In this document: piece by piece, positions 3,158-60,039 of the stretch | Position numbering within the stretch: the stretch's first letter is position 1 | Layout of the letters: each line of letters begins with the position of its first letter | DNA from: Azolla caroliniana | Lineage: Eukaryota > Plantae > Polypodiophyta | Direction of reading: 5' to 3' | Assembly (NCBI GenBank): GCA_043228905.1 | Contig: JBHGNT010000012.1 | Span: 6,324,001-6,388,000 of the forward strand | DNA: 64,000 bases | The notes under the pieces: model-generated | The model's database searches: none | Seen by the model: the letters and a program-made list of their open reading frames with translations, nothing else | Told to the model about the DNA's origin: nothing | Program-made: the position numbers and the translations under genes

Positions 3158-3640
3158 TAGCAATGGGCGCGGTTCGGTTCGGTTTCCTAGCCTTGAAACC
3201 AAACCAAACCATTTATTTATATTAAAAACCAAACCAAATTGTTTAAATTTTATGAAGCCATTTAAACCAAACCGTTTATGAAAATTTTAGAACTAAACCA
3301 AATCGGTTTATCATAAATCAAAACCAAACCAAATTTATAAACCGATAAACTTATAAACCTTTAAACCTTCAAATTTTCTAAACCTTTAAACCAAACCACA
3401 TAAGCTGAAACCGCTAAACCGTGAAATTCAAAACCAAACCAAACCGAAACCGATAAACCGATAAGCCACTAAACCTCTAAACCGCTAAACCATGAAATTC
3501 AAAACCGAACCGAACCGAAACCAAACCGGATCATAATATTTGAAACCAAACCAAACAGTTTATTTATCTTTGAGCCAATAAACTGTTAATCCATGGCTTA
3601 ACAGTTTGGTTTGGTTCGGTTCGGTTTGAGCCGAAACCAT
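3158..3640. mobile_element. AACCG/CGGTT-rich MITE-like (probably hAT-derived) element, right end lost at the gypsy insertion
   Basis: Begins TAGCAATGGGCGCGGTTCGG, similar to the TIR of 23508-23823; dense AAACCG/AAACCA subrepeats in both orientations. Confidence 0.6.
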
Positions 3641-4563: not shown

Positions 4564-4581
4564 TGGTGAACCCGACGTGAA
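4564..4581 (+). promoter_or_regulatory. Primer binding site complementary to the tRNA-Trp 3' end
   Basis: TGGTGAACCCGACGTGAA is the reverse complement of TTCACGTCGGGTTCACCA, the plant cytosolic tRNA-Trp 3' end as recalled; it starts after a 4-nt spacer following the LTR. Confidence 0.85.
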
Positions 4582-4598
4582 AACCGGGTGGCAAGGAG

Positions 4599-6101
4599 AT
4601 GGAAAATCAACCGGAGGCTAGCAACATGATGATGATGTTCGAGCGCATGCTACAAGAACAACGCGCGATGTCGGAGATAGCGGCATCAGTGGAGCGGCTC
4701 GTGCAACGAAACGGGCAATTCAACGGGAAAGACGTGTCGCGGTATCTTCGGGACTACAAGGCGGAGATGCTACGGTGCGGAATATCGGAAGGACTGCAAG
4801 TGACGTCCTTCAACCGGGTGGCGACCGACGGGCTTCAAGCAAGCATCCATGGGCTACGACAGCAAAATCCGACATGGGAGGCGTTTGAAGTAGAGCTAAA
4901 GAGGACGTTCGCCATCGAGGATTCCTCCAAGGCGACGCGAAGGGGATTCGAAGATTGGGTGGAGACGCCGGACAAGGGATTGAAGGTCGTTGATGTGTTT
5001 TCGGCATTCGAAAGCTGGTTCGGGAGGTTGTCCGCGAGAGATCAAGCTATCCTCGTACCGGACAAGGTAATCATGTTCTTGCGAGCCGTGGACGTCCGGG
5101 ACCGGAAAGATCTCGGAGTGCTCTTGGAGGACACGACCACGGAGAGCGGCCTCACCGAAACATGGGAAAGCGTGCGGGATATCGTCGCGCGATACACGAA
5201 GAGGGGGCAATGGCTTGCCGACGAGGAAAAGAGGGTTTCGGAACCGATTCCGAAACCGAGAACCGGATTGGAAGACCATCAACCGAGGGCTCGAGAGACT
5301 ACAACCGAGAAGGGGATTGATGCATCTACGGTGGAGCAACTATTGAAGGAGATGGAGAATCTGAAGATCGCGATGGTGAAGAAGTCGGATGACCGCCCCA
5401 CAAGCTCCAAGTATATGGACCGACGGTGCATATGGTGCGATAGCGCCGAACACGATCGGAGGGATTGCGACGAGCATAAGGAGGCGCTACGGCGGGATCT
5501 CATCTACTACGAGGGAAACCGGATTCATTCGATGGACTCTCGGAAGCCACTCCGACCGAACTTCCGAAAAGGCGGCATGAAGAAGGTGCTCGAGGAGGAA
5601 TTGGCGGCAAGAAGCAACTATGCGACAACCGCGGGAATATGTGTCGGGGAGTCATCGAGAGCAAAGACGTCTTTTTGGCCGGAAGTTCTAGAAAACACCG
5701 AGAAAACCGACTCCAACGAGATCCGAAGCACCGCGGAAGGCGTCCGGGAAGCTACGGGATGGGAGTGCCCTGTCGACAAGAATAGCATATACGTCCTGTG
5801 TCAATTGCATAAGGTGTATGTGGACGAGAAACGACGACGCACGGAGGATGCGGACGGGCCATCGAAGATACCGGAAAGCTGGAACTCTGGAGGTAAGGGA
5901 AAAGAAAAGGCGACTCCGGCATTCAAGCTTGCCTCGGACATAGAACAACAAACCGACTTGAAAAGAATGTTCGAGGAAAGAATCTTGGATAGCCGGGTAG
6001 ATTTCTCGCTTCGGGAGCTACTCGGAATAGCAAAGAAGGAGTTCCACGATCACGAAAGGAACAAGAGGGAACTCTTGTCACAAGTGAGAATGGATTTTTA
6101 A
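4599..6101 (+). CDS. Gypsy Gag (500 aa) with CCHC zinc knuckle; no aspartic protease motif visible
   Basis: FNGKDVSRYL N-terminal gag motif; CIWCDSAEHDRRDC knuckle; ends MDF* over GGATTTT. Confidence 0.8.
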   Translation: MENQPEASNMMMMFERMLQEQRAMSEIAASVERLVQRNGQFNGKDVSRYLRDYKAEMLRCGISEGLQVTSFNRVATDGLQASIHGLRQQNPTWEAFEVELKRTFAIEDSSKATRRGFEDWVETPDKGLKVVDVFSAFESWFGRLSARDQAILVPDKVIMFLRAVDVRDRKDLGVLLEDTTTESGLTETWESVRDIVARYTKRGQWLADEEKRVSEPIPKPRTGLEDHQPRARETTTEKGIDASTVEQLLKEMENLKIAMVKKSDDRPTSSKYMDRRCIWCDSAEHDRRDCDEHKEALRRDLIYYEGNRIHSMDSRKPLRPNFRKGGMKKVLEEELAARSNYATTAGICVGESSRAKTSFWPEVLENTEKTDSNEIRSTAEGVREATGWECPVDKNSIYVLCQLHKVYVDEKRRRTEDADGPSKIPESWNSGGKGKEKATPAFKLASDIEQQTDLKRMFEERILDSRVDFSLRELLGIAKKEFHDHERNKRELLSQVRMDF

Positions 6102-8341: not shown

Positions 8342-9206
8342 TATGGAGGGCACCGAAAAGACCGGATGGTATACCACTTCGAGTAGTCGGGACAAAAGAG
8401 CAACAAGACCGGATAATGTCCGAGTTTCACGAATCCGATTGGGCTGGACACCGAGGAACATGGGCAACATTTGTGAAGATCAAGCAAAAATATTGGTGGA
8501 AGAAAATGTACAAAGATGTCGCGGAGTTCACGGAGAGCTGCGAGAAATGTCAAGTCTACTCCGGGGTTCGACATCGAGATGAGTTACATCCGACATTCTC
8601 ACCGACAATCAACTTCAACTGGATGGTTGACATAGTGGCCATGCCGACCGGGATCGGACAAAAGAAATACTTGGTATTAGCTCGGGAAGATCTCACGAAT
8701 CAAGTAGAAGGTCGAGCGCTATGCCAATTTCTTTTGGAGGAAGTATTTTGTAGGTACGGGTGCGTAGGACAAGTGATTGCGGACCGGGGAGAACTCGACT
8801 CGGACAAAGCTAGGGGATTCTTCGCCAAACACGGAGTTCGGTTATCGCTGACAGCGGCATACAATCCGGAGGCCAACGGGAAAATCGAACGAGGACATAG
8901 TCCGATCGTGAAAGCACTTGTGAAGGCATGCGATGGAAAGGTGAAGGACTGGCCACAGATGCTTCCGTATGCACTATGGGCGGATCGGACGACGCATAGC
9001 TCCATAACTAGTTACATGCCGGCAGAACTCATGACCGGACAAGCACCGGTAATGCCGACGGAAACCGCGATCGCAACATGGACAATGCTACCGTGGAAGG
9101 AAGAGATGAGCCGGGAAGAACTACTAGCGGTCCGGATACGACAACTAGAGGGAAGACCGGCAGACATAGCGGAAGCAATACGCCGACAACAAGAAGCACG
9201 ATTAAA
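8326..9206 (+). pseudogene. Gypsy integrase, frameshifted from RT-RH and truncated
   Basis: HHCC (FHESDWAGH...CEKC), WMVDIV, IADRGE, PEANGKIERGH; last 70 nt of the ORF-track ORF are host copia sequence. Confidence 0.85.
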
Positions 9207-9339
9207 TGTAATGTTAGCATATTCTATTCCATTATCAGACCTCAACATCTTTATTGTTGTGCCATATAGAGTTTGAGCAACTCTATGAAAATCTTTAAAA
9301 CAAGAAAATACTTCATTCATATCTTTCATCAAATATAAC

Positions 9340-12300
9340 TATTAAGAATTAGGTGATTAATTAGGGGTTAATTAGGGGTTAATTAGTACCTAATTATGTG
9401 ATTAGTTGATAAGCGGAAGATTAAGTGATATGTGTGTGTATGTGTGTGAGAGGAAGAGAGAGAGAGAGAGGAAGTTAACACTTATAAACAACAAAAGATA
9501 GGGGATGAGTAACTATATATTAAATTAGCATGAACATCATCAAATACAAAAATACCTACAATGAGGTATATATAGATCTCATGTGCAAGGGTGCACATGT
9601 GTGAGGATAATATAGGTACAAAAGTGTAAGTCCTATATTAAATGTACTTGGGAGTGGAGGATCTAGAATATCCCACTTAAGTACAAGGTCCTATTTAAGG
9701 CATTATAGTCAACACTTCTAATTTGATTCTATTTAGGTAACTACAAAGTTACATGGTTGACTAACTAACTAAACTAAGTTGAGCTTGATCTCTCAACACG
9801 CCCCCTCAAGCTCAAGTGGGAGGCATCCAACATCCACTTTGGCTTTCATCGGCTTCGTGTGCTTCCGTCCGGCCTTCGGCTTTCTTCGTTGTGGCAATCT
9901 CGGTTCCTCCCCCTCAAGCTGACAACTAAGGCTTGTAGTGTATGGGCGAATGTCAACTACTTTGGTGGAGCTCTTGGGCTCTTGTTCGGCCGCTACCTTC
10001 ATCGTGATGGCATAGTGATGGGCCATGTACTTGTTGTGGCCGAGCCGAGTGACGGGATTCTTCTCTCTAGAAGAGCGTCAAAGTTTTTCACTCGCCGATG
10101 TCAACGCCTTCTTTACTCCGGGTGTCCGCATGATGGGTACACCAAACTCACTATCTAGTGAGGGAGCCGAGACATCCGAATCATTGTCATCAGGGTGATT
10201 GACTTTGTATTCGGGCATCTTACCTTTTTCTTTGTCCAAGTTCGGACTTGGCCGCGACGTGCTTGGAAGGCTTGAAGACTTGTGTGGCCGAATATCATCC
10301 TCCGAGTTGACGTTCAACTCTTCCTCGGTCAGGTCGGGTGGAGTCGAATCGGGCTTATACCATGATGCCGATTCGTCGAAGACTACATCTCGACTCACCG
10401 GAACCGCTCGGGTTGAAGGGTTATAGCACTTGTATGCCTTCTTCTTGGACGAGTATCCTATGAGGATACATTCCTCTGACTTCGCGTCAGGCTTCTATCA
10501 GCTTTCGTTCGGGATGCGTACATTCGCAATGCTTCCGAACACCTTGAGGTGCAACAAGATCAGCTTCCTTCCGACGAGGAGCTCGTATGGAGTTAGCTCA
10601 TGCACTCCATTAGTGGTGCGCCAATTCATGAGATAGACGGTCGTGGATGCCGCGTCGGCCCAATAGAAGTTTGGCATGTGCTTCTCATGTAACATGGCTT
10701 GTGCAGCCTCGAGTATTTGCCGATTTTTCCTTTCGGAGACTCCATTTTGTTGGGGTGTGTGTCGGCACAAGAATTCTCTCCGAATGCCTTCACTTTGGAG
10801 GTAGGAGGTGAATTCATCGGAGAAGTACTCCTTGCCCCCATCCGATCGTAGGCATCGAATGTGCCAACCGGTTTCTTTTTCGACTTGGCCCTTGAGCTTT
10901 TGGAAGTGGGAGAACACTCCGCTCTTCTTCTTCATCGGGAAGATCCACGCATAACGCGAGTAGTCGTCGATGAAGGTGACGTAGAATCGGCATCTGTCGA
11001 TGTCGGCATTTGAGTCGGTCCCCATACATCCGAGTGTATGATGTCGAGGAGGCCTTTGCTTGCGGAGCTCTCCTCCGTAAATGGGAGTCAATGTTGTTTG
11101 CCAAGTTGACATGCTTCACATACTCGGTCAACTCGTTTAGACTCGAAGGTTGGAAGTCCGATGACGACTCCCTTTGATTGCATAGCTCGGAGCCGTTCGA
11201 GGTTTATGTGGCCGATTCTTTTGTGCCACAACTCAATGCTTGTCTCGGTTTTGAGACCTTTGGCATACATGGCCGATTTCACCTCATTCGAATTGAGGAT
11301 GAACATGCGACCATCTCTCCGTCCCTTGGTTATGAGTTGGCCATCTTTCTCGATGAAATAACCTTCATTGTTGAAGCGGACTTGCATGCCTTGCTCCACG
11401 ATTTGGCCGACGGAGACCAAATTCTTTGTTATTGTGGGCACATGCAAGACATTCTTGATGCAAGTTTGTTCGCGTTCTTTCCTGAATGGGACATTGCCGA
11501 TGTGCCAAATGGGATGTGTGGTGTCGTCTCCCGTCTCTATGAAGCCGGGTCGATGCGGCGTTCGTAAATCATGAAACCACTCTTCGTAAGATGTCATGTG
11601 GTGTGAGGCAACGGAATCGACGAACCACATGTCTTTCGAGTTGGAGGCGCTTGCGGAGTTGGAGGCCGACATAGAGTTTGCTCTATGCCTCATTATGAAT
11701 AGTCCGCCGTAATCATTGTATTCAGAGTTGACGGCGTAATTCGTGAGTTGTTGACTTGTGGAAGCCAACTCATTTCTTCTTTTTCGGCACTCCTCGCGGT
11801 GGCCGATTTTGCCGTAATAGTTGCAAGTTGTGGGCCTCGTTTGTCGACCTTGTTCGGCATGGAAGCTCCCCCTTCTTCAGAATATTCCTTGATGGCTTCC
11901 GTGAAGGTTTGAGTTCCCTTCGTGTGATGGGCCGAATTGGCCTCTTCTTTTGTCGTGACCTCGTCCTCGGCCACCGTCCGAACTTGAGAAGAACATTTGT
12001 CCTTCCGACATCTTCATCTTGGTTCGAACATGGTTCTCTTCAACCAATAACATTGATTGGAGGTCGAAGAATGAAGGAGGATTTTCCCTCGCCAAGATTG
12101 CCCTCCTCAACGAGTCAAATCGTTGTGCGAGGCCGCCCAAGCATACTTGAACCATCTCATCTTCGTCGACGTTTATTTTGATGGAGCCAAGCAAGTCGCA
12201 AATGCTCTTGATCTTGGCGGTGTAGTCCGACACGGACATGTCTTTTTGCCGAATGTTGTTCAACTCTTGTCGGAGTTGAAGCTTTTGGGAGGTTCTGTTG

Positions 12301-12866
12301 GCGGCGAACATTTTCTTTAAGTTCTCCCACGCCTCTTTGGGCGTCTTGGCATCTTGAATGTGGTTAAGCATGTGGTCGTGGACACATGTTGCCAAGCAAT
12401 ACATGACTCGACTCGCCGCTTGCTCCCATGATTAGTAGTCGACGTTCTTTGGGTCGGGTCGATTTTCTTGAGCGTCGTTGATGTAGCTCCAATACCCTTG
12501 GCCGACAAGGTATTGGGTCATCTTGTACTCCCAAGATGAATAATTGCTCCGGTCTAGCTTTTCACTAGGGAGCGAGCTACCCATTTGTGTGTTCATGTTG
12601 ATTGACGTATCTTCCATTTTTACTTTCCTTCCTTCAGTCACGTACACGTGTTACGTAGCAGCACTATGGTAGCCGATAGCCAGATTTTGTCGTCGGCATC
12701 TCGAACACACAATCACGAAGTCGGGTGGGCTTAGTGGATTTTCTAAACCACATGCTCTAATACCATGTTAAGAATTAGGTGATTAATTAGGGGTTAATTA
12801 GTACCTAATTATGTAATTTGTTGATAAGCGGAAGATTAGGTGATATGTGTGTGTATGTGTGTGAGA

Positions 12867-12902
<36 letters not shown>

Positions 12903-13227
12903 GTTAACACTTATAAAGAACACAAGATAAGGGATGAGTAACTATATATTAAATTAGCATGAACATCATCAAATACAAAAATACCTACAATGAGGTATAT
13001 ATAGATCTCATGTGCAAGGGTGCACATGTGTGAGGATAATATAGGTACAAAAGTGTAAGTCCTATATTAAATATACTTGGGAGTGGAGGATCTAGAATAT
13101 CTCACTTAAGTACAAGGTCCTATTTAAGGCGTTATAGTCAACACTTCTAACTAGATTCTACCTAGGTAACTACGAAGTTACATGGCTGACTAACTAACTA
13201 AACTAAGTTGAGCTTGATCTCTCAACA
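9340..13227 (-). mobile_element. Ty1/copia derivative with both LTRs (9340-9798, 12766-13227) but lacking RT/RNase H
   Basis: Two highly similar LTRs of about 460 bp; TSD ATAAC (9335-9339 and 13228-13232); PBS TGGTATTAGAGC (iMet type, 12754-12765); PPT at 9799-9806; gag (KLDRSNYSSW), protease (WFVDSVASHHM), integrase (RSDGGKEY, PQQNGVSERKN); no YVDD. Confidence 0.9.
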
Positions 13228-14272
13228 ATAACCAAGTAACACAAGAGAAGTAGTCAATGAAAGAGACAATTTATATGTATATCCATTAATAGAACTTGTG
13301 GAACACGGTCCCCAAACATTAGAGTGTATTACATCAAACACATGGGAACTCCTATGACTTGAACTAACATATGAGCTTTAGTAAGCTTACCAAATTCACA
13401 TGCATCACAAACAAGTTTCGATTTATCAGCCTTTTCAAAAAGATGTGGATATAGCCAACTTAAAACCCCATAAGAGGTATGTCCCATATGTTGGTCGTAA
13501 AGCATCAACAAGTCCTCACAACTCATTTTAGATCCCGTTACATCTATTCCATCTACATAGATGTTAATGTTGAATCCAATCCTTTGTCACGACACAATGA
13601 CATCAAATACAGAGTTGGTGAGGATTGAACCTACAACCTCATATCAACAAGATGTCATGCTCAACCATTTTTATATGAGCATGCATTTATATATAATAGT
13701 TTAGCATATAGTACATTTCAAAATCAAAATATATTCTAGTTGTTAGTATATTCTAGAAATATTGTACAGTATATTCTAGACGGGTATATTCTAGAGATAT
13801 TCAGTCTCGAAACATGTATAAATACTTGTAACCTCCTTGGTCCTTTTCAGGGGATTCAACACCATTCATTGACACATCAATCTAGTATTCTCATTTCGTC
13901 CCATCTTGTCTCCTTGATCTTTATCTTTGTCTTCATGCTTTTGTGTCGTTCCACACTATTAGCCCCATCATCCATGCTTCGTCCAAGTCCACGGTTGTGT
14001 GTTCGTGATAGTTTGAATCCCTTCCAACTAGAAGTATTGCCCTTCTTCGTTAATACCTTTGCTTCTATAGTTACCATCATCACCGTCCTTGCTTCCAGAG
14101 TTACCGTCATCACCATCCTAGTCTTCAACATCATCTTTTTTAGCACCTCTTCGCCCAACTTTCATCGTAATCAACACAACTTTGCATGGTCTTTCATTAT
14201 CATCATTGTTCCACCCTCTTCATTATCATTGTCATCATCTATCTATAGGTATCATTTTGCATCACGATTTTG

Positions 14273-14635
14273 GCGAGGATTGATTTCGATCGCTCGCGTT
14301 CACAGTTGCGATGGGGGTTACAACCGCTCATTTTCCTGGTGGGGATCGAATCATTGCTCGTTTGCACTCCATTTTCATTTCGGTTCAAGTTTCACTCCAC
14401 TTTCCTTTGGCGAGGATCAATTTTGATCACTCAGCTTCACAGTTCCGGTGGGGGTCACAACCACTCACTTTCTTGGTGGGGATTGAATCGTTTCTCGCTT
14501 GCACTCCATTTTCATTTTGGTTCACATTTCACTCCACTTTCCTTTGACGAGGATTGATTTCGGTCACTCACCTTCACAGTTCCGGTGGGGGTCACAACCA
14601 CTCACTTTCCTGGTGGGGATCGCATCGATTTCTTG
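14273..14635 (+). repeat. About 2.6 copies of a unit of about 137 bp, each with three bulged hairpins
   Basis: Units start near 14275, 14412 and 14549 (gaggatYRatttYgRtcRctc...gggggtYacaacc...ggtgggga). Confidence 0.85.
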
Positions 14636-14755
14636 TTAACGCTACCGTTTGTGCCATGTTTTGGGTCAACCTCAACTATTTACCCTCTCATGATAGAAGA
14701 CGTCGAGTCGACCGCTTCACTTGCACTCCTTCATCCGTTGTTGTACCAGTTCCCA

Positions 14756-15252
14756 GTGAGGACAACACATGGTTGCTCACATTCCAATTCCTGGTGAGGG
14801 CCACACATGATCGCTCACACCCGTTCGTGTTCCAGTTCTCGGTGAGGATCGCATGGTCACTCACACTCGTTCGTATTCTAGTTCTCAATGAGGACCACTT
14901 GGTCGCTCACTCTCATTCATGTTCTAGTTCCTAGTGAGGACCTCACATGGTCACTTAGCCCGTCAACCATCAGTGTTCGTTCATGTCTTTGTGAGGACTA
15001 CACATGGTCACTCACGTCCATCTGTGTTCCAGTCTTCGGTGAGGACAACACATGGTCGCTCACATCTGTTCGGGTTCCAGTTCTCGGTGAGGACCACACG
15101 TGGTTGCTCACGTCCATTGGTATTCATGTCTCTGGTGAGGACCGCACATGATTGCTCACACCCATTGGTGTTCTAGTTCCCAGTGAGGACTACACATGGT
15201 CGCTCACATCCGTTGGTATTCGTGTCTCTGGTGAGGACTGCACATCGCTCAC
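14756..15252 (+). repeat. 11-copy tandem array, period about 48 bp, core GTGAGGACYACACATGGTCGCTCAC
   Basis: Exact 48-bp period for units at 14991, 15039, 15087, 15135, 15183, 15231; the core is a self-complementary hairpin. Confidence 0.9.
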
Positions 15253-15939
15253 GCTTGTCGGTGCTCCAAGTCTTATTCGTCCCTACACCATGCTTTCGAA
15301 AAGGCAACCGTAAAAGAGAAGATAATATCACGACATGGTGACATCAAATCCATAGTTGGTAACGATTGAACCTATAACGTCATATCAACAAGATGTCATG
15401 CTCAACCATTTTGATATGAGCATGCATTTGTATATAATAGTTTAGCATATCGTACATTTCAGGATGAGAATATTCTAGTCGTTAGTATATTCTAGAAACA
15501 TTGTATTGTATATTCTAGACGAGTATATTCTAGAGATATTTCTCGACTATGTTCTACAGATATTCGATCTAGGAACATGTATAAATACTTGTAACCTCCT
15601 TGGTCCCTTTCAGAGGATTCAACACCAGTCATTGACACATCAATCTAGTATTCTTGTTTTGCCCCATCTTGTCTCCCTGAACTTTATCTTTGTCTTCATG
15701 CTTTTGTGTCGTTCCACACTATTAGCCCCATCATCCGTGCTTCGTCTGAGTTCACGGTTGGTGTGTTCGTGACACCCTTCACAATCCAAATACCTTAGTC
15801 TACTATGCCATGTGCCAGTCCCAAGTCTCTTACTTGTCCCTTTCTCCTGGAATGTCACCTTGGGAACATCAAAAGAAACAACACATTTTATACTCTAAGT
15901 AGATAATTTATTCAAGTAGATATTTCATTAGGGCACATT

Positions 15940-16480
15940 CCACTCGTTGAGTTCCTTGATAGCTTATTTGGAATAGTGAACTACTCGCTTGTGGCACTTT
16001 TTTTCAATGATTTTGTTTTTGCCTGCATCCTCTTCTCCTCCTCGTACAAGACTTTCTATAACTAGTTTCTCACTTACGCGTTGTGCTCAAGCTTATGCAC
16101 ATGTAAGTGATGTGAATGAAGTCGAGAATTTATGTCCACATTGAGAAAGAATGGTTAGAAGGAAATCCATTGATAACCAGTATCTTGATAGATATCTATG
16201 CATGCCAAATGTATTACAATTACAAAAGCAAATATGCAATATTTCGAAGATTACATGTATGGTATATTGTGGAACACTATGATACGCGCAAATGAGTTTC
16301 ATCTCAACAAAGAATGCTTGGAATATCTTGGAGTTGATGCAAAGAGACTATCAAAAGAGAATATAAGGTTTCCGTGGATACATAGCCAAATTGTCATTCT
16401 TTAAGTGCAAATAAACATTTAGAAACCGTTATGGTCATGATTTTAAGTGGGTACCTAGGCCAAATTATCACACTTAAGTG
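15940..16480 (+). pseudogene. Degraded PPR gene fragment
   Basis: Frame-hopping reads VHIEKEWLEGNPLITSILID..HAKC..LWNTMI, matching PLS-PPR motifs (LIDMYAKC, WNxMI). Confidence 0.45.
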
Positions 16481-23139: not shown

Positions 23140-23202
23140 GAACACTCAGCAAAAACATACATATGTATAAACATATAGACAAACTCTGTCAAATTTGTTA
23201 AA

Positions 23203-48826: not shown

Positions 48827-49166
48827 GCAAGTCTAGTGGAGAGGGGAAGAAGAAGCGAAATTGTTTTTATTGCTGCACTCTCTATCGGGAACAGAATTTA
48901 GCATAAAGACATGTGTTAGAAAGCCCTCGATTAGAGCTCTGTAACGAGATATAGCAAGTTAAATTTGGTGGTTTGTGCGAGAAGCATCGATAGAAATAAG
49001 AAATCTTGTGTTATTGGCATCTATGATGATATGGCACGACTCAAACCCATGACTTTACGTTATATGGGTCAAGCTCTTGACCATTATACCATCTATTGTA
49101 ATACATAACATATTATTTTCATTTAAGTTTTATTATAGGAAATTAATGTATATTCCAGATTTCTCT

Positions 49167-49186
49167 AGAACATTCTAGAAGCTTCA
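49167..49186 (+). promoter_or_regulatory. Heat-shock element (four nGAAn units) upstream of the LTR TATA box
   Basis: aGAAc aTTCt aGAAg cTTCa; TATAAAAG at 49206. Confidence 0.7.
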
Positions 49187-52100
49187 GGATTACTTTTGAG
49201 AACACTATAAAAGAAGGTACTAGGCATTATGTTGAACCAAATTGGTTCAACACCAGTCTTAAGCCTCATAGCCATCTTGTACTTACTCTTCCTATAATAT
49301 CATATGTTATCATCATCTCTCTCTCTCTCTCTCAGCCTCACACACACACACACACACACTCTCTCTCTCTCTCTCTCTTCTCTTCTCTTCTCTTCTCTTT
49401 CCTCCCTAGTACTATTCCTGATAGTTTGAACCAAATTTTCTTCTTTAGTCTTTCTTTTGGTTTCCCTCATCCTCTTATCCTTTTTCTATACAATGGCTTC
49501 TGTTAGCGCCCAAGAATACCAATCCGTTTTCTCCGAGCTACAATGTCTAAAAGAAAAATTTGTTGCCTTGGAACAAGAAAACCAATGGTTGTTAGGGGAT
49601 CTTCAACAAATCACCCTAGAAAAACAGCAAACGCAGCAACAACATGGGGAGTTGCAACAACAACATGGGGAGTTAGCGTTAGGTGTGCAACAACTCGAAG
49701 CAGAGTTGCAACAACAAGGATCAAGTCCCCACGGATTTCATAAAGAGCCCAAGATTGGACTTCTTGTGAAAGTTGATGGAACACGATCACAATTTAGGGG
49801 ATTCCTCAATCAGGTATGCTTAGTCATTCAAATGCATCCTTCTTGATACCCCACTGATGCATCCCGAGTCGGCCTAATAGGCACGTTGCTTAGCGGCTCA
49901 GCCTTGACATGGTTTGCTCCGCTTCTGGACAAAATCACATTTAATAACTTTGAAGACTTTATTAGTGAGTTTAAAGCTTGCTTTGGAGATACAGACATCA
50001 TCCGAACAGTGATCAACAAAATCCGATGATTGCATCAAGGCGATTGTCCAACCTTTGCTTAAGCGGCGGATTTCCGTCTACTCGCTTTAGATATCCCCTG
50101 GGATGATCAGGCACTAATGGAGTAGTTTCGTTACGGCTTGCGAAACGATGTCAAAGATCTACTTCTAACCTTCCCCAAAGAACCAAAGTCTCTTAAGAAG
50201 GCAATCAGTTGAGCGGTCCGATGTGACAACCGCCTTTTCGAACGACATTCGGAACGTCAATTACAAATACCACGCTCTAGGCCGGAGCCCACTTACGCCT
50301 CGGTCGTGGCTAAACCGTTTGCACGAGACATACCTCAAGCAAATAATCTGACATCGATGGAGATCTACACCATGCGTCGACATGGCCCGTTATCAGAAGA
50401 AGAAAAACAACGACGACGTCCAAATCGATTATGTCTTTATTGTGGTGGACCAGGGCATCTCGCAATCAATTGTCCCCATAGGCCAAGAAGACAGGTAAAT
50501 CAAATCGTCACATGTACTAAACCTGAGTTAATTCTTCCCTTAGGAGTGTCTGATAGTATTAATAGTACTAATAGCTCAAGTATCTCAAACAAATTTGAAA
50601 TCCTTAGTCAATTAGATGAAGAGTTAAACGATTGAGTCCAGCCAAAATAGGAGTTGTTTGGTTGGACAACCCTAGATATGTATAACCCATTAGTGGTTCC
50701 ATTCCCTCCAAGCAAGTTAGCAATGTGTTCCTAGCCCAAGTCATGGTTAGTACTAAAAGTACTCCCCTAGTACATGTCCTAGCACTTCTAGATTCCGGAG
50801 CTAATTCCTGTTTCATGGATCGAAATTTTTCCCAAGCTTCTCAAATATCCTTAAGAAAACTTCCTTGCCCCGCATCTATAGTAGTCATTAATGGTTGTCC
50901 CATTGCTTCCGGGAATATTGTAGAAGAGTCAGAACCCATTCAAGTTGTCCTAGGTAGTTTTGTGTGTGTAGTAGCATTTAATATAATTAGTAGTCCAGAG
51001 CATCCCATTGTCCTGGGATTACCTTGGTTTGAATTACATAATCCAGACATAGATTGGAGAACAAGAGAAGTCCGACATCGGCAACCCCAAGAATCTACTC
51101 ATCGAGTTTTGACTATTTCACTACGTCAATTACGTGAAGAAGGACACAAGGAGACAATGTTCCTATTTGCAATATCAATACAGCCTTCCAGCACTATTAA
51201 GGAGGAATCCTTAGTGCAACTTCCGACGAAATATCATCCTTATGCCAATGTATTTGACAAGGTAAAAGCCGATACTCTTCCTCATCATCATCCCTATGCT
51301 TGTCCCATCGATTTACAACCAGGAGCAGAGCCACCATGGGGACCAATTTACAACTTGTCACCCACCGAGTTAGAAGTCCTTCGAGCCTACATAGAGGAGA
51401 ACTTGGCAAGCGGGTTTATTCGTCATTCGAAATCTCCGATCGGTGCACCCATCTTCTTTGTCAAGAAGAAAGATGGCTCACTTCGTCTCGTCGTTGATTA
51501 CTGCGGCTTGAATAAAGTTACCATCCAGAATAGGTATGCACTTCCTCTTATATCAAGTCTTTTAGAGCAAGTTAATGGTGCCAAGTTTTTTACAAAAATC
51601 AATCTACGAGGCGCGTATAACCTCGTGCAGATCCGACCGCGAGATGAATGGAAGACCGCCTTTTGCACACGGTATGGGCATTTCGAATATATTGTTATGC
51701 CGTCCGGTCTAACCAATGCACCCGCAGTCTTCCAACACATGGCAAATGATATATTCAGAGACCTCTTGGATATCTGTTTGATCATCTATCTGGATGATCT
51801 ATTCATTTATTCGAAGACCCAGGAAGAGCACGATTCTCATGTACTATTAGTACTAAAACGACTCCGCGAGAATGGTCTTTATGCCAAGCTAGAAAAATGT
51901 TGCTTTGACTGCAAGCAAGTAGAATTTCTAGGTTACGTCATCTCCTCAAAGGGCATCTCCATGGATCCAGCTAAAGTCCAAACTTTGCTAGAGTGGCAAA
52001 TTCCACGGTCGGTACGAGATGTATAATGTTTTCTAGGTTTTGCTAACTTCTACTGCAAGTTTATACAGGATTACTCGAAGATTATTTTACCTCTCACACA

Positions 52101-53507
52101 ACTTACGAAGAAGGGAGATTCAGCATTTCTTTGGTCCAATGAAGCGGACATGGCTTTTTGGCATCTTAAGAAAGCCTTTACATCAGCTCCTATTCTAGCT
52201 CATGAGGATACAAACAAACCATTCATCATGGAGGCTAACGCATCGGATTTCGCCCTCGGTAGCATCCTTTCTCAACAAGGAGATAAAGAAGAGTTACATC
52301 CTGTGGCTTTTCATTCGCGCAAATTCGATGCCGCGGAAATCAACTACGAAATACATAACGAGGAGTTTACTGTTATTAGCCATCGTGGATTCCTTTGTGC
52401 AATGGCGGCATTTCTTAGAGGGCTCTCCACATCAGGTCATCATCTTTAGTGATCACAAAAATCTTGCTTATTTCCAGAATGCTCGGGTGTTAAATCGACG
52501 GCAAGCTCGGTGGGCTCAATTCCTCACGCATTTCGACTTCAAAATCACATATCGACCGGGGAAGTAGTAAGGAAAAGCAGATGCGCTACCACGACGTTCA
52601 TATCTTGCACCTCGTCCTAGTGATCCAACGTTTGATAATCAAAAGCAAGTAAGCTTGGGACCAACACGATTGCACGCAACGCTGATTTTTCACACCCCAA
52701 TGGATTCCCGAATTACCGATGCCATACATGCGAACTTGAAGACAAACAGTTTTGCTCAAGACATTCTGGCGCACATTCATACCTCTCGGGCATCCTGTTC
52801 CCAATCTCAACAACCAGGTATGGACTATCGACAATTCAAATATCATATGATGGTTTGTTATTCTTTAAGAAGCTTGTATATGTCCCCGATTTCTCCTGTC
52901 GCCTTCAAATCGTCCAAAATTGTCACAACACCGATACGACGTTGGATCTCGTTCAACGATCTTTTTGGTGGCCCCATATGCGATGTTTTGTCGACAACTA
53001 CGTTCGAACTTGTGATGCTTGCTGCCGAGCAAAGATGCCCCGACACCATCCATATGGCTTGTTGGAACCCTTACCGATTCCAAGTAAGCCGTGGCAGTCT
53101 ATTTGTCTTGATTTTATCATAGATCTGCCGGTCTCAAAGGGGTTCGATGCTATCTTAACCATCGTCGATCGATATACCAAGATGGCACATTTTGTGCCGT
53201 GTACTAAGGCCATCACTAGCAAGGAAACCATCGCCCTTGTCATGCATGAGGTATTTCGGCATCATGGCCTCCTAGACAGTATCATCAGTGACCGAGGACC
53301 TCAATTCGTCTCCAAATTTTGGCAGCATCTCTTGAAGATGCTCAAGGTCTCTTGCAACCTCTCCTCCGGCTACCATCCCCAGACTGATGGGCAGGCAGAA
53401 CGAACAAACCAATCGCTGTAACAATATCTCCGGTGTTTTTTGAGTTATCAACAGGACGATTGGGCCGAGATTCTCCATTTTGCGGAGTTTGCATATAATA
53501 ATGTTGT

Positions 53508-56500
53508 TGTTACACTTGCGTGTTCCTCTAGTAGCTTTGATGTGAACCATTTTCCCTATACATGGGCACTTTTTACTCTAGTGTTGGCTAGAGGTTTTTT
53601 CCCCATGTTACCACATACATGAGTCACTCATATGTGGTGGTACTTAGTACTTAGGGATATATATTTCAGCTCCTATTTTTTTTAGGAACATTCATCAATA
53701 GAGAGCTATTCCAGCCATTGCCTTCCTTGTGTGAGTGCTTCTTTCTTTGAGCTTCTTGTGTGTTTCCCACTCTTCCTCACATACCCAACAGTGGTATCAG
53801 AGCCAAGTTCTTCATCCTCTCCATCTTCGGTTGTCCGCATCGCGGTGTCGCGGCGCGCGCGCACTTTTCATTGTGCAAATCAACTTCCGAATATAGAGAA
53901 GTGTATTTCAGCACTTGGAGCGCATTTTCAGCAGGTACCCTGCTGTTTTACCCCCATTTCGAAGCCGTTCGTGTAGTCGAAATCGTCATCCGAGTGATAG
54001 TTTGTGAGCTGCATTTTCAGCACTCATTTCCGATTTGTTGAGGTAATATTTTACCACTTTCTTGTTCTTTGGTAAAATGGCAAACAATGGTGATTTGTTT
54101 GGCATGCTTCAAGCTGAAGATAAGCTTGATGGGACAAACTATCCAATGTGGTCCTACATGATGAAACACGTTCTTGTTGCCAAACAACTATGGAACATAG
54201 TGGTAGATGTAGATCGACGCCCCGCCGGTCCTACTACTTCACAGTCTACTATCACAGATACAGGTTCATCTTCGAGCACAGTGACTTCATCTACTCCACC
54301 AACACAAGAGCAACTTAGATGGGATGGAAAAGATGCTCAAGCTCATGCATTGATTGCACTTTCTGTGAAGCGTCATATAGTTCCACATATTCAGTCATGC
54401 TCTACGTCCAAACAAGCATGGGACACTCTTGCTTTGTTGTATGCCGTGCGTAACGAAGCACGTGTTGCATATTTGAGAAAGCAACTTGAGGATGTATATA
54501 TGGCTGAAAATGAGTCGGTAGATGTGTATGTGACACGCATTAAAGATTTGAAAGAGCAATTGGCAAACATTGATGAGATCATTTCGAATACATCACTTGT
54601 CTCTACGTTGTTGAAAGGATTACCCGAATCTTTTCAAAGCTTTGCTACTACTATTCGTTTGGTTGCAAAAGGGAATACGGATATGTACGCATTTGATGAG
54701 GTTGTGTCTCTTCTTTTGCAAGAAGAACAATCTAGAGTGAATAGAAGTGGTTTGATAGAGGGAACACAAGCACTTGCTATCTCACAAAAAGGAAAAGGCA
54801 AGCATGGTTCAGCTTTTGGTTCTTCAAAACCAAAGCCTCAACCTCCCTCTTTCACTTATTCCTCTAATGATGGTGATTTGCAAAAGAAGAAAAGATGCAA
54901 ATATTGTCGAAAGGTTGGCCATACGATTGAAGAATGTAGAAAGCTTGTTAAGCGCAATGAGAAGAAGAAGGAATCCGGCATGACCATTTCTGAAAATGTT
55001 TCAAGTGCAAAGAGTGATGAGGCCAACATGGCTCAAGATTATTGGGCATGTGTTGTTACATATCATTATGATGCATCATTGCACTCTAAATGTATGGTTG
55101 TAAGTGAGATTGATTCGGATTGGTTCTTTGATAGTGGTGCTTCAAAGCACATTACTTCATGCAAAAGTTTTTTTGCATCCTTGAAAGATGCACCCAAAGG
55201 TGGACATGTGGTGTGTGCAAACAATGCCTCTTATCCTATCATTGGAGTAGGAGAAATTGAGCTTTCGGCTGCAAATGGAGGTGTTGTCATCTTAAAGAAT
55301 GTATTGTATGTGCCCGGTATCAAGAAGAACTTAATTTCGGTTCCTTTGATTGCCAAAGCCGGACTTCATGTACATTTTGTTGATGATAAGTGCATGGTTC
55401 ACGATTATAGCAATGGTGATGTTATCGTGATGTCCGGTACATTATGCAATGGCTTGTACCGCTTAGATACATACAAGAGGGCTTCTCTAAATGCCTTGGC
55501 TGTACATACTTCTTCCATGGCTGAAATGGAGCTTTGGCATGCTCGTTTTGGTCACTTGAACTTCAATAGTTTGCTTCACTTGCAAAAGAAGGATATGGTT
55601 ATTGGGTTGCCTACACTTGAGTCCATTGAAAAACATGCATGTGAAGGTTGCATTCTTGGAAAAATGCATCGTGCTTCCTTTCCAAAAGATAGTCATACAC
55701 ACACTACAAGAAAATTACAACTTGTTCATAGTGATGTGTGTGGTCCTGTAAAGACTCCATCTTTTGGAAAGCATGTATATTTTGTTACCTTCATTGATGA
55801 TGCTACTCGTCATACATGGGTGTATCCTATGAAAGCAAAGAATGAAGTCTTTTCTTGCTTCAAATCATTTTTAGCTATGGCTGAAAATTTTTCCGCAAAT
55901 AAGCTCTTGACTCTACGCACGGATCGTGGTGGCGAATATATGTCACATGAGTTTAATGCTTTTCTTTGTGAAAGAGGTATTTTACATCAATGTACGGTGC
56001 CATATACACCTCAACAAAATGGTGTTGCAGAACGCAAAAATAGAACACTCTTAGAGATGGCACGATGTATGGTTAAAGGAAAGCATCTTCCTAACAAGTT
56101 TTGGATGGAAGCGGTTATGTGTGCAAATTATGTGTTGAATCGTTGCCCTACAAAAGCGTTGAGAGTCATTACGCCATATGAGGCTTGGAATGGACATAAA
56201 CCTATGGTTAGTCATATGCGTGTGTTCGGTTGTTTGGCATATGCTCTTGTGCCATCACAACAACGTCACAAACTTGATGACAAGGCAAAGAAATGCATAT
56301 TTGTTGGTTATAGTGCGGAAAGTAAGGGATATCGTTTGTATCATCCATTGACGGACACAATTATTGTGAGTCGAGATGTGGTATTTGCTGAAAATTCAGC
56401 TTTCCCTTTTCTTGAATGCAAAAAACAACCAACAGTTAGCTCACAAGATGTGTTTGATACACTCATGCCTTTGTTCCAAAGTGCTGCGCTTGACCATGGA

Positions 56501-58677
56501 CATGTAGACCAGCCAAGTGAGTCTCAAAGGGATAAAAATTTCCAGCAAATAAGTGTTGAAAATGCACGAAATGTCCAACCAAATGTGGCTGAAAATGAGC
56601 ATGAAATTCAGCCCACGCATGATGTACATATTGAAGATGTATTACATAATGAACGTATGGCTATCGAGAGGTCACAAACTATGCCGAGGTGGCTGAAACA
56701 AACTTTGCAAGATAGCAAATTGAGTGCACCTTTACTTGGTAAAACAAGATCAAGCTCTCGCCATGCATCAGGTAATTTTGTGGATTATTCTATTGTTGCA
56801 ATAGCATGTAATGAGGAGCCACTTACTTTTGAAGATGCATGTGATGATCCACATTGGATGAGTGCTATGCAATCAGAAATGGATTCCATTCATAAAAATG
56901 GTACTTGGGAGTTATGTGAATTGCCAAAAGGAAAGAATGTGATTGGTACTAGGTGGGTTTACACAATTAAACGAAAGCCCGATGGTAGTATTGATCGCTA
57001 CAAAGCTAGATTGGTTGCCAAAGGATATGCCCAACAATATGGCATTGATTATGAGGAAACTTTTGCACCTACTTCACGCATGACTACCATTCGTACCGTG
57101 GTTGCATTGGCTGCCCAAAGAGGTTGGAAAATGCATCAATTGGACATAAAAACAGCCTTTTTAAATGGTGATTTGCAAGAAGAGGTTTATGTGAAGCAAC
57201 CTCCTGGATTTGCTACGAAAGAGAAAGAGCATATGGTTTGTCGCTTGCATAAGGCCTTGTATGGTCTCAAGCAAGCTCCGCGTGCATGGTATGAAAAAAT
57301 CCATAAGCACTTGATTTCTCTTGGCTTCACATGTAGTCCGATTGAAAGCACACTTTATGTACGCAAAGATGGGGCTGATCTTCTAGTGCTCGTTCTTTAT
57401 GTTGATGACATACTCTTGACTGGGTCATGTGATGCAAAACTCGATTTTCTTATGGCTGATTTGCAGCATACTTTTGAAGTCACTTATCTTGGTCTTTTGA
57501 GCTACTATCTTGGCATCCAGTTTGTATCCGTTGAGGGGGGAATGTTTATGCATCAAGGAAAGTATGTTGAAAAACTACTTCAGCGTTTTGACTTTGAGGA
57601 TTGCAAGCCGGTTTATACACCTGTGGAGACAGGATTTAGGTTCTCTGTTGAGGATTCTAGTGATGCGTTTGATACTTCTCTTTATCAACAAGCTGTGGGA
57701 TGTCTTATATATGCATGCAATACAAGGCCGGATATACAGTATGAAGTCTCCCAATTGAGTCGATTCATGCATAGCCCTGGCACTAAGCATTGGCAAGCAG
57801 TGAAACGTGTGTTCAGATATCTTAGAGGCACTTTGAGCTTGGGTCTCTTTTATGGCAGAGATACTCAGCCATGCTTGCATGCTTTTACAGATAGTGATTG
57901 GGCTGGTTGTTATGATACTCGCGTGTCCACTAGTGGTAATTGCTTTTTCTTTGGAAACTCATGTATATCTTGGTTGAGTAAAAAGCAACCTACAGTGGCG
58001 ACATCAAGTTGTGAAGCTGAGTACAGGGCAGTTTTCACAGCTACAGTGGAGTGTATATGGCTAAGACGCCTTTTGATGGATCTTTGCATGGAGATTGAAG
58101 TTGCTACACGTATTCTCACAGATAGTCAGAGTGCATTGGCTGTTGCACGAAATCCTGTATTTCATGCACGGACCAAACACATTGAGGTGCATTATCACTA
58201 TGTGAGAGAGCGCTTTCATGCAGGAGATATTGATTTGGTATATGTGCCTACACAAGATAACGTGGCAGACATATTCACCAAAGCTCTTCCACGAGAAAAG
58301 TTTGAAGCTTTTCGCAAAGCTTTAGGCTTATTGCCTTGTGGGGGCTGATCTGTCACTCCTTGTACATGTTCACATCATTCGCTCCAGGGGGGTTTGTTAC
58401 ACTTGCGTGTTCCTCTAGTAGCTTTGATGTGAACCATTTCCCCTATACATGGGCACTTTTTACTCTAGTGTTGGCTAGAGGTTTTTTCCCCATGTTACCA
58501 CATACATGAGTCACTCATATGTGGTGGTACTTAGTACTTAGGGATATATATTTCAGCTCCTATTTTTTTTAGGAACATTCATCAATAGAGAGCTATTCCA
58601 GCCATTGCCTTCCTTGTGTGAGTGCTTCTTTCTTTGAGCTTCTTGTGTGTTTCCCACTCTTCCTCACATACCCAACA
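53508..58677 (+). mobile_element. Intact young Ty1/copia; LTRs 53508-53790 and 58395-58677
   Basis: 283-bp LTRs with one difference found by eye; perfect TSD GTTGT; PBS TGGTATCAGAGCC (iMet) 53792-53804; PPT AGGGGGG near 58386. Confidence 0.97.
54077..58348 (+). CDS. Copia Gag-Pol polyprotein, uninterrupted
   Basis: CKYCRKVGHTIEEC, WFFDSGAS, WHARFGH..CEGC, RTDRGGEY, PQQNGVAERKN, YVDD, TDSDWAG, ADIFTKAL. Confidence 0.95.
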   Translation: MANNGDLFGMLQAEDKLDGTNYPMWSYMMKHVLVAKQLWNIVVDVDRRPAGPTTSQSTITDTGSSSSTVTSSTPPTQEQLRWDGKDAQAHALIALSVKRHIVPHIQSCSTSKQAWDTLALLYAVRNEARVAYLRKQLEDVYMAENESVDVYVTRIKDLKEQLANIDEIISNTSLVSTLLKGLPESFQSFATTIRLVAKGNTDMYAFDEVVSLLLQEEQSRVNRSGLIEGTQALAISQKGKGKHGSAFGSSKPKPQPPSFTYSSNDGDLQKKKRCKYCRKVGHTIEECRKLVKRNEKKKESGMTISENVSSAKSDEANMAQDYWACVVTYHYDASLHSKCMVVSEIDSDWFFDSGASKHITSCKSFFASLKDAPKGGHVVCANNASYPIIGVGEIELSAANGGVVILKNVLYVPGIKKNLISVPLIAKAGLHVHFVDDKCMVHDYSNGDVIVMSGTLCNGLYRLDTYKRASLNALAVHTSSMAEMELWHARFGHLNFNSLLHLQKKDMVIGLPTLESIEKHACEGCILGKMHRASFPKDSHTHTTRKLQLVHSDVCGPVKTPSFGKHVYFVTFIDDATRHTWVYPMKAKNEVFSCFKSFLAMAENFSANKLLTLRTDRGGEYMSHEFNAFLCERGILHQCTVPYTPQQNGVAERKNRTLLEMARCMVKGKHLPNKFWMEAVMCANYVLNRCPTKALRVITPYEAWNGHKPMVSHMRVFGCLAYALVPSQQRHKLDDKAKKCIFVGYSAESKGYRLYHPLTDTIIVSRDVVFAENSAFPFLECKKQPTVSSQDVFDTLMPLFQSAALDHGHVDQPSESQRDKNFQQISVENARNVQPNVAENEHEIQPTHDVHIEDVLHNERMAIERSQTMPRWLKQTLQDSKLSAPLLGKTRSSSRHASGNFVDYSIVAIACNEEPLTFEDACDDPHWMSAMQSEMDSIHKNGTWELCELPKGKNVIGTRWVYTIKRKPDGSIDRYKARLVAKGYAQQYGIDYEETFAPTSRMTTIRTVVALAAQRGWKMHQLDIKTAFLNGDLQEEVYVKQPPGFATKEKEHMVCRLHKALYGLKQAPRAWYEKIHKHLISLGFTCSPIESTLYVRKDGADLLVLVLYVDDILLTGSCDAKLDFLMADLQHTFEVTYLGLLSYYLGIQFVSVEGGMFMHQGKYVEKLLQRFDFEDCKPVYTPVETGFRFSVEDSSDAFDTSLYQQAVGCLIYACNTRPDIQYEVSQLSRFMHSPGTKHWQAVKRVFRYLRGTLSLGLFYGRDTQPCLHAFTDSDWAGCYDTRVSTSGNCFFFGNSCISWLSKKQPTVATSSCEAEYRAVFTATVECIWLRRLLMDLCMEIEVATRILTDSQSALAVARNPVFHARTKHIEVHYHYVRERFHAGDIDLVYVPTQDNVADIFTKALPREKFEAFRKALGLLPCGG

Positions 58678-59666
58678 GTTGTTCACTCCTTGACTTGGGT
58701 CTCCCCATTTTACGCTTATATCGGTTCTCATCCTCGTTGGTCGGTGATCGTCACCCCGGAGCTACCTACCAATCCTCGTGTTGAGGATCATTTGGAGTGG
58801 CTACGCAAGATCTAGATGGATCTCTCTACTTATCTTCGTCATGCTCAACACACAGAGAAGACTTATGCGGATCGTCATCGGCTTCCCTCCTCTTTTGGCA
58901 TCGGAGATCGAGTATGGCTCTTACGTCGGCACATCAAGACTACTCGACCGTGCGACAAGTTGGATTATCGACGACTCGGTCCTTTCTGTATTACTAATAA
59001 GGTTAATGATGTCACGCTCCACCTTGATCTCCCTCCGCATCTTCAGATACATCCAATTTTCCATAGCTCTCTTCTTGAACCTTATAAAGCAAACACGATT
59101 CCCGATCGTGTTACACCACCACTGCCCCCGCCGCCCCCACTTGAGTTGGAAGTCGGCCTGGAGTATGAAGTTGCTGCCGTCCTCGATTCCAAACTTGTTC
59201 GCAACAAACTTTATTATTTGGTCAATTGGCTCGGCTATAGTCCAAGTGAACGTACTTGGGAACCCGTCGAGCATGTCGCCAATGCTCCGGATCTTCTTGC
59301 TGAGTTCCACCGAAAGTATTCGAACAAACCCGGTCCACAATCAACGCCAACTCGTTCCACTCGTCGTCGTAAGGGGGAAATAGTGTCATGATATGTCAAG
59401 ACTCGAACCCATGACCTTATGTTATATGGGTCGAGCTCTTGACCATTATACCATCTATTGTAATACATAAGATATTATTTTCATTTAAGTTTTATTATAG
59501 GAAATTAATGTATATTCCAGATTTCTCTAGAACATTCTAGAAGCTTTAAGATTACTCCTGAGAACACTATAAAAGAAGGCACTAGGCATTATGTTGAACC
59601 AAATTGGTTCAACGCCAGTCTTAAGCCTCATAGCCATCTTGTACTTAGTCTTCCTATAATATCATC

Positions 59667-59716
<50 letters not shown>

Positions 59717-60039
59717 TCTCTTCTCTTCTCTTCTCTTTCCTCCCTCTCGGGAGTCTTACGTTGTCCCGTCCTCTTAGTACTAATAGTACTTCCCTTCTCT
59801 AGTACTAATTCTCTCTCTGTTTTAGTATTATTCCTGACAACATCCACATACTCAACACATAGTGCAGATCTTCTATTGTATTCATCATCATCAACCTCTT
59901 CAATCAGGTGACTTCCGGTTATCTTTCTTGTTCATGGAAAATTGTTTTTATCCCAGATCGCTATCACATCAAGAATAATGGATATGAACATGAATTCTTC
60001 TCAAATTGTGGGGGACATTGATATGGACACAATTGATCT

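What the first reader, a model, noticed from the sequence alone, without database searches (positions are those of the whole stretch)
14273..15252. Array of about 20 covarying bulged hairpins inside the non-coding element
Seen: the 48-bp units fold as GTGAG-GACCA-caca-TGGTC-g-CTCAC (5 bp, single 3' purine bulge, 5 bp, tetraloop). The unrelated 137-bp units use different sequence for the same fold: GCGAG-GATTG-attt-CGATC-g-CTCGC (14273-14297), plus shorter variants GTGGG-GGT-caca-ACC-a-CTCAC. Stems covary while linkers are pyrimidine-rich and more variable. Inference: structure is selected at the RNA level, e.g. a multivalent Gag-binding/packaging signal or a protein sponge that lets a non-coding element compete for helper particles.
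Basis: partly seen in the sequence, partly recalled or inferred. Interest (0 to 1): 0.8.

Follow-up and report, generated by a model that had tools for sequence, protein, structure and literature searches.

The report
Hairpin arrays in self-priming gene-less retrotransposon
A gene-less jumping element of a plant carries 20 copies of one small bulged hairpin motif whose core pairing is kept across diverged repeat types, so the hairpins likely act on the element's RNA as handles for borrowing a helper element's particles, though the copies also multiply by ordinary tandem duplication.

Summary
The array is real: 20 hairpin-like units on the sense strand of a 2.19-kb non-coding LTR retrotransposon (LTRs 13585-14010 and 15326-15774, 5-bp TSD). 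The element has a Tf1/Tcn1-type self-priming site and belongs to a multi-copy family (55 loci; contigs in five organism labels). Only 4 of 20 units have the exact fold. The 137-bp units share flanks with the 48-bp units, so are likely homologous. The showcase C-G pair at 14296 is nearly private to this copy. Among 437 distinct 48-bp units there is no covariation (35 compensatory doubles, 30 expected) and variation is mostly C-to-T/G-to-A decay. Between seven unit types the six pairs around the bulge stay paired (42 of 42) through G-U and two double changes, which suggests older selection on a sense-strand RNA helix; few events, not significant. Best guess (0.4): a cis-acting RNA handle for packaging or dimerisation in a Tcn1-type helper particle. 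The coding chromovirus in the window lacks the motif, and transcription is not shown. The scan noted similar arrays in fungal, animal and protist elements (unchecked notes); none matched this sequence.

The parts
13580..13584 (.). left target-site duplication (TCCTT)
   Evidence: sequence; one mismatch to the right copy
13585..14010 (+). 5' LTR, 426 bp, TG...TA (decayed TG...CA)
   Evidence: 384 of 421 aligned bases identical to the 3' LTR; 63 contigs with heterogeneous loose ends before 13585
13817..13824 (+). TATA-like box in the LTR
   Evidence: function inferred
13849..13860 (+). predicted 5' end of the RNA and self-primer, complementary to the PBS
   Evidence: 10 contiguous matches with one bulge here; 12-13 in 10 other junctions
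14011..14022 (+). self-priming primer-binding site (no tRNA-type PBS seen)
   Evidence: two PBS variants each match their own LTR start
14023..14268 (+). pyrimidine-rich, unstructured leader
   Evidence: z +0.27; length varies among relatives
14269..14633 (+). 137-bp higher-order array: 3 x subunits a (14273, 14410, 14547), b (14311, 14448, 14585), c (14339, 14476, 14613)
14750..15252 (+). 48-bp array: 11 units starting 14756, 14794, 14842, 14888, 14934, 14991, 15039, 15087, 15135, 15183, 15231
15312..15325 (+). decayed polypurine tract plus short spacer
   Evidence: relatives have a G-richer tract at the same place
15326..15774 (+). 3' LTR, 449 bp
   Evidence: 43 contigs with heterogeneous loose ends behind 15774
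15775..15779 (.). right target-site duplication (CCCTT)
   Evidence: sequence
49021..59839 (+). decayed coding chromovirus of the helper type (Tcn1-like; a Copia element is nested at 53507-58682); not shown to be the partner
   Evidence: RT and integrase; CCHC knuckle; chromodomain and self-priming PBS; named RT relatives include fungal and vertebrate proteins, Cryptococcus 63%; no sense-strand hairpin hit

Best explanation
This is a gene-less, multi-copy LTR retrotransposon with a predicted self-priming site, and its tandemly amplified bulged hairpins likely serve as a cis-acting handle on the element's RNA that gets it packaged and paired inside the particles of a Tcn1-type helper. Shown: the LTR/TSD/PPT anatomy, no chromovirus coding sequence inside relatives, a PBS that changes together with the LTR start, family-wide arrays with 38- to 54-nt spacing, and a core helix (3 bp, bulged purine, 3 bp) paired in all seven unit types. 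Inferred: the RNA starts about 30 nt after the TATA box and primes itself as Tf1 does; helper Gag, which has a CCHC knuckle, would bind the G-rich bulged helix. Because any 5' arm can pair with any 3' arm, the array would also zip two RNA copies together. Copy number would give avidity and redundancy, which relaxes selection on single units and fits the lack of recent covariation.
For: Core six pairs are paired in 42 of 42 type states, with 5 derived states (3 G-U, 2 double changes) and none broken; the breaks are confined to the two outermost pairs. A-U/G-U/G-C and C-G/U-G/U-A series occur at two inner pairs. A third series reaches G-C only in the distant locus L019, at two places. G-U exceeds A-C 111:36 in 137-bp types; G-U pairs only on the sense strand. 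RNAalifold recovers the same 8-pair helix, and pair counts exceed 500 of 500 shuffles for percent paired and covariation score (hand-picked rows). The helix forms with some 3' arm at mean P 0.72 in 21 well-kept units, 0.44 within the unit. Arrays sit upstream of at least three U3 types and two PPT types, one behind what looks by eye like a chromodomain tail, as expected if the RNA recombines with helper RNA in particles.
Against: No covariation in 437 distinct 48-bp units: 35 compensatory doubles against 29.6 expected; stem pairs rank 75-737 of 741 column pairs. T-to-C changes are about as common in stems (18, 11, 10 of ~437) as in linkers (17, 15, 21 of ~396-435). The type-level count is 6 of 8 pair-keeping states, p 0.14, and the types are related. 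Only 5 of 20 window units fold locally with P of 0.5 or more, against 3 of 20 on the other strand. Folding z of 10 stretches ran from +1.0 to -2.6 with no clear strand preference. The coding chromovirus in the window has no sense-strand hit to the hairpin model. Ty1 packaging signals lie in the 5' 580 nt (PMC4974528, passages), whereas these arrays end about 100 nt before the 3' LTR start in most relatives.
Confidence: 0.4

Rival explanations
1. Passenger minisatellite: one ancestral hairpin-containing unit was multiplied by slippage and reverse-transcriptase template switching. The hairpin promotes its own duplication and occasional quasi-palindrome correction, and the array has no function now.
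For: No covariation or stem-specific constraint among 48-bp units. Recurrent variants that break pairs are shared by several loci. Folding is no better than shuffles for the 48-bp arrays. Internal satellite-like arrays occur in 10 sugar-beet non-autonomous families (PMC13570524, passages) and in about half of Retand elements, function unknown (PMC11963269, passages).
Against: The core stays paired in 42 of 42 type states while loops (CACA, ATTT, CAT), spacing (28, 38, 48, 71 nt) and linkers changed. G-U, not A-C, states are fixed in the core.
Confidence: 0.33
2. The hairpins are selected RNA structure but bind a host protein (export, stabilising or silencing-related factor, or a sponge), not helper Gag.
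For: The same structural evidence as the best explanation. Absence from the helper-type element fits a ligand that coding RNAs do not need.
Against: No candidate protein; no Rfam match. The stems (8-10 bp) are short for Dicer-type processing (own knowledge).
Confidence: 0.2
3. The units are double-stranded DNA sites (palindromic protein-binding sites or an enhancer), or an array of 5' splice-site-like motifs.
For: The arms are near-inverted repeats; 48-bp units begin with G/GTGAG (sequence).
Against: The two half-sites differ by the bulged base; fixed G-U states are mismatches on the other strand; a-type units lack the GT.
Confidence: 0.07

Closest known systems
Non-autonomous LTR retrotransposons: TRIMs, tandem TA-TRIMs, elongated derivatives and LARDs (PMC4717578, PMC13570524, PMC7215508; passages read)
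   Same: Two LTRs, PBS, PPT, 5-bp TSD, no coding capacity, tandem and chimeric copies; internal satellite-like arrays are known in 10 sugar-beet families.
   Different: At 2.2 kb it lies between the TRIM (<1 kb) and LARD (>4 kb) size classes. It has a self-priming PBS, and the array unit is a bulged hairpin kept across diverged types. 'Hairpin', 'secondary structure', 'packaging' and 'self-priming' have 0 occurrences in the main text of PMC13570524.
Tcn1-clade chromoviruses and Tf1 self-priming (PMC6317226, PMC7175516, PMC2864245; passages read)
   Same: No tRNA PBS; about 11-12 bases after the 5' LTR pair with the predicted RNA start. The same arrangement is in the window's coding chromovirus.
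   Different: Non-coding. One unpaired base in the primer duplex. Hairpin arrays are absent from the coding element here. The specific partner is not identified.
[quoted passage not shown]
   Same: Family-specific tandem arrays upstream of the PPT, function unknown.
   Different: Other lineage; those elements are large and mostly coding; no hairpin or stem-loop term occurs in that paper's main text.
Cis-acting packaging and dimerisation signals of Ty1/Ty3 (PMC4974528; passages read)
   Same: Mini-elements are mobilised in trans by a helper and depend on cis RNA sequences; the review says multiple scattered sites may contribute.
   Different: The mapped Ty1 signals are near the 5' end and shared with the helper; no repeated hairpin is described in the passages seen.
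Helenus, Ajax and Cassandra (TRIMp3; PMC10886601, parts 1-4 of 6 read)
   Same: Non-coding LTR element with a small-RNA-like stretch in the LTR (weak tRNA-like signal here).
   Different: The tRNA-like stretch is antisense, below threshold, and also present in the coding chromovirus; the LTR has a TATA box; the element is longer than 1263 bp; the PBS is not tRNA-type.

Membership tests
Non-autonomous LTR retrotransposon | Two direct LTRs with TG...CA ends and a TSD | tested here: met
   one end base decayed in each LTR; TSD 4 of 5
Non-autonomous LTR retrotransposon | PBS and PPT at the interior ends | tested here: met
Non-autonomous LTR retrotransposon | No gag/pol coding capacity | tested here: met
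   0 Pfam hits for the two interior-overlapping ORFs tested; tblastn hits to chromovirus proteins in 3 of 55 loci, all outside the elements
Non-autonomous LTR retrotransposon | Multi-copy, dispersed insertions | tested here: met
   55 loci; heterogeneous flanks at both LTR ends, 63 and 43 contigs
TRIM (strict) | Length under 1 kb | tested here: not met
   2190 bp; 14 measured interiors 703-1461 nt
LARD (strict) | Length over 4 kb | tested here: not met
   as above
Tf1/Tcn1 self-priming group | PBS complementary to the RNA's first ~11 bases instead of a tRNA | tested here: met
   11 of 15 junctions with family-type PBS and visible LTR start match over 10-13 nt, in two covarying variants (8 and 3); 4 match only 4-5 nt, three of them chimeric
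Tf1/Tcn1 self-priming group | Mapped transcription start and RNase H cleavage of the primer | not testable with these tools
   only contigs were available
Tf1/Tcn1 self-priming group | RT phylogeny in the Tcn1 clade | tested here: inconclusive
   the element has no RT; the neighbouring coding element has fungal and vertebrate named relatives and a chromodomain; no tree built
Retroelement packaging signal | Binds Gag/NC and is needed for encapsidation | not testable with these tools
   needs experiment
Retroelement packaging signal | Shared with the autonomous helper RNA | tested here: inconclusive
   absent from the one coding chromovirus in the window, which may not be the partner
Conserved structured RNA motif | Covariation beyond phylogeny and mutation bias | tested here: inconclusive
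   none within 48-bp units; suggestive between types
Helenus (TRIMp3) | tRNA-derived Pol III promoter in the LTR of an element under about 1.3 kb with tRNA PBS | tested here: not met
   0 ARAGORN genes in the window and in 18 loci; Rfam tRNA 19-21 bits against cut-off 29, antisense; size and PBS differ
Retrozyme | Hammerhead ribozyme in the LTR | tested here: not met
   no Rfam match at E up to 5 in 13400-16000

The most novel reading that the evidence does not exclude
Gene-less parasites of self-priming chromoviruses have evolved their own multivalent RNA packaging and dimerisation array, a bulged helix that the helper itself lacks. It lets the parasite RNA outcompete helper RNA for particles and swap helpers' U3 and PPT ends while keeping the array module.
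Probability: 0.22. Interest if true: 0.75.

Novelty: new variant of a known kind. Interest (0 to 1): 0.45.

Why it matters
How non-coding LTR elements stay tied to their helpers is stated to be unknown (PMC10886601, discussion), and so is the function of internal tandem arrays (PMC11963269). This family offers a small, defined, repeated RNA helix with natural variants and a covarying self-primer, so both questions become testable with binding and donor-helper assays. If the array is only a passenger it is an ordinary minisatellite in an unremarked element family.

Tried and rejected
No whole genome is held, and the metagenome records could not be searched further, so no copy census and no partner search were possible. 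The viral collection gave nothing for the hairpin pattern or the chromovirus RT. Expression: no RNA holder listed. Three same-species runs were laid: X15 (RNA is a guess) gave 8 contigs, X16 (kind unknown) 63 and X17 none. Some contigs of X15 and X16 cover array bins, and none cover the U3 bins 13586-13804 and 15338-15556. Three X16 contigs carry another subfamily's U3 as a loose end, so this is no evidence on start site or expression. Rfam found nothing in the element. The PPR search did not identify the host: best named hits were 40% identical or less, mostly non-seed plants and gymnosperms. Stem-versus-linker conservation from the anchor-based unit set was set aside as biased, because units were chosen by stem sequence; the sequence-only HMM set was used. 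Folding z-scores do not separate the array from shuffles. Helenus, retrozyme and splice-site readings were rejected as above. Ten literature searches showed no listing that describes a hairpin array in a self-priming non-autonomous plant LTR element. The library lacks most subscription papers, and no supplements were opened.

Full report
Observation. The stretch 14273-15252 holds two tandem arrays, of period 137 and 48. Counting the G-rich 5' arms gives 20 units: three subunits (a, b, c) in each of three 137-bp repeats, and 11 units of the 48-bp type. A structural descriptor found 21 hits in the window on both strands, 15 of them in the array. A two-unit pattern matched 3 times against 0 in 100 shuffles. 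The + strand folds better than the - strand in 16 of 20.

The element. The arrays lie between two LTRs (13585-14010, 15326-15774), identical at 384 of 421 aligned bases, with a TCCTT/CCCTT duplication. A TATA-like box at 13817 and a decayed purine tract at 15312 put the element on the + strand. There is no tRNA-type PBS. The bases after the 5' LTR are complementary to 13849-13860, about 30 nt after the TATA box. Among 15 junctions with a family-type PBS and a visible LTR start, 11 match over 10-13 nt with one bulge, in two different sequence variants (8 and 3 cases). Four match only 4-5 nt, three of them being one variant's PBS behind the other variant's LTR start. This is the Tf1 arrangement: the first 11 bases pair with the PBS and RNase H cuts off the primer (PMC7175516, passage). 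It is predicted for most plant Tcn1 chromoviruses (PMC6317226, passages), although none was found for SM-Tcn1 (PMC2864245, passage). A decayed coding chromovirus at 49021-59839 has the same arrangement, a CCHC knuckle and a chromodomain, and fungal and vertebrate RT relatives. It shows the helper type; it is not shown to be the partner. The host is probably a non-seed plant (inference from Tcn1 distribution); a scan note calls it a fern, which I did not test.

The family. One metagenome scan gave 117 loci. 59 resemble the element, and I dropped 4 that overlap the same contigs, leaving 55; the other 58 are unrelated chance matches. All 55 come from 15 assemblies with neighbouring ids, so they are not independent studies, and some are near-identical subfamily copies. 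None has chromovirus coding hits inside the element. Fourteen measured interiors are 703-1461 nt. Several are tandem or chimeric. Arrays precede at least three U3 types and two PPT types; one PPT follows a short stretch that reads by eye like a chromodomain tail. Contigs of five DNA runs from five organism labels cover all 30 bins (1908-7766 contigs each), with mixed flanks at both LTR ends in X1. Because loci were found by an array pattern, I could not test whether array-less members exist.

Covariation, against. In 437 distinct 48-bp units aligned by sequence only, change is dominated by C-to-T and G-to-A at CG and CHG sites. Compensatory doubles number 35 against 29.6 expected; only one pair is in excess (6 against 1.8). 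The ten stem pairs rank 75-737 of 741 column pairs. Pair-breaking T-to-C is about as frequent in stems as in linkers. The 137-bp subunits share upstream flank sequence with the 48-bp units, so they are likely relatives, not convergent. The 48-bp arrays do not fold better than shuffles, and only 5 of 20 window units fold locally with P of 0.5 or more.

Covariation, for. Taking the majority state in each of seven unit types (all 24 aligned 137-bp copies in the first and last positions, plus the 48-bp set; 6 rows left out: 2 middle repeats, 2 from L019, 1 fragment, 1 misassigned 48-bp hit), the six pairs flanking the bulge are paired in 42 of 42 cases. Five derived states occur there: three G-U and two double changes. 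The two breaks lie in the outermost pairs. Over all eight pairs the count is 6 of 8 derived states paired, p 0.14 under a transitions-only null, and the types are related. G-U cells outnumber A-C cells 111 to 36 in the 137-bp types and 255 to 138 in the 48-bp type, the latter largely from CG context. On 46 hand-picked units RNAalifold returns the same helix with 4 of 8 pairs changed on both sides, and 0 of 500 shuffles reach the covariation score; 52 of 500 reach the number of pairs changed on both sides. Those rows were partly chosen by patterns that favour pairing. The distant locus L019, with a different LTR, keeps the core and adds a G-C state at a third pair, at two places. In 21 well-kept units from 6 loci the helix forms within the unit at mean P 0.44 and with any unit's 3' arm at 0.72, so the main competing fold is the same helix between neighbours.

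Helper. A covariance model of the hairpin ranks the 20 training units first. Inside the coding chromovirus it finds only one minus-strand hit at E 3.8. The motif is therefore not a general feature of such elements here.

Mechanism. Shown: anatomy, family, primer/PBS covariation and type-level retention of the helix. Inferred: transcription, self-priming, trans-mobilisation by a Tcn1-type helper, and selection on the RNA helix (about 0.6). Given the element's need to enter helper particles, the mix of helper-like 3' ends, and the G-rich bulged core (that CCHC knuckles favour exposed G is recalled, not from a call), I put packaging or dimerisation first at 0.40. A functionless passenger array gets 0.33, a host-protein ligand 0.20 and DNA-level roles 0.07.

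Known kinds. Non-coding LTR elements, tandem and chimeric copies and internal satellite-like arrays are described (PMC4717578, PMC13570524, PMC11963269, PMC7215508; passages). Trans-packaging of mini-elements is shown for Ty1/Ty3 (PMC4974528, passages). The element fails the strict TRIM, LARD, Helenus (PMC10886601, parts 1-4 of 6) and retrozyme tests. Ten searches showed no listing with this combination. The scan's own unchecked notes report comparable arrays in other genomes and no sequence look-alike. Verdict: a real, new variant of a known kind, with weaker covariation than claimed; interest 0.45.

Noticed in passing
window 13600-13680 and 59395-59460; L005 187-257; L028 1139-1208: The first ~100 nt of U3 read antisense look tRNA-like (A- and B-box-like words) in the family's LTR types and in the coding chromovirus. 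Rfam tRNA scores are 19-21 bits (cut-off 29) in two loci, none in the window; ARAGORN finds nothing.
   Followed up: partly
L002 1401; L028 3264 and 6547 (oriented coordinates): LTRs whose start carries one primer variant while the PBS behind is the other variant. This would be expected if the primer bases and U3 are copied from the 3' LTR of a chimeric RNA; such copies would be unable to self-prime.
   Followed up: partly
L028 1106-7764; L009: Head-to-tail array with a 3283-bp period made of two different internal regions and two LTR types, on high-coverage contigs (34x and 24x by their names).
   Followed up: partly
window 13450-13584 and 15775-15900: Both flanks are themselves high-copy, and contigs join across the element (13556 to 15774), so it sits inside another repeat.
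   Followed up: no
window 14660-14715: Between the two arrays a conserved stretch could form a longer, different stem; a similar stretch occurs twice in L019. Seen by eye only.
   Followed up: no
window 3641-9276: Decayed non-chromovirus Gypsy element with a tRNA-type PBS near 4565, cut at its 3' end by a Copia element (LTRs 9342-9798 and 12768-13227, minus strand).
   Followed up: no
window 53507-58682: Young Copia element (LTRs 99.3% alike, 1433-aa open frame) nested in the chromovirus integrase.
   Followed up: no
window 20506-23145, 31594-32052, 37707-40978: Host genes: a PPR protein, a cyclin exon and condensin II CAP-H2 exons.
   Followed up: no
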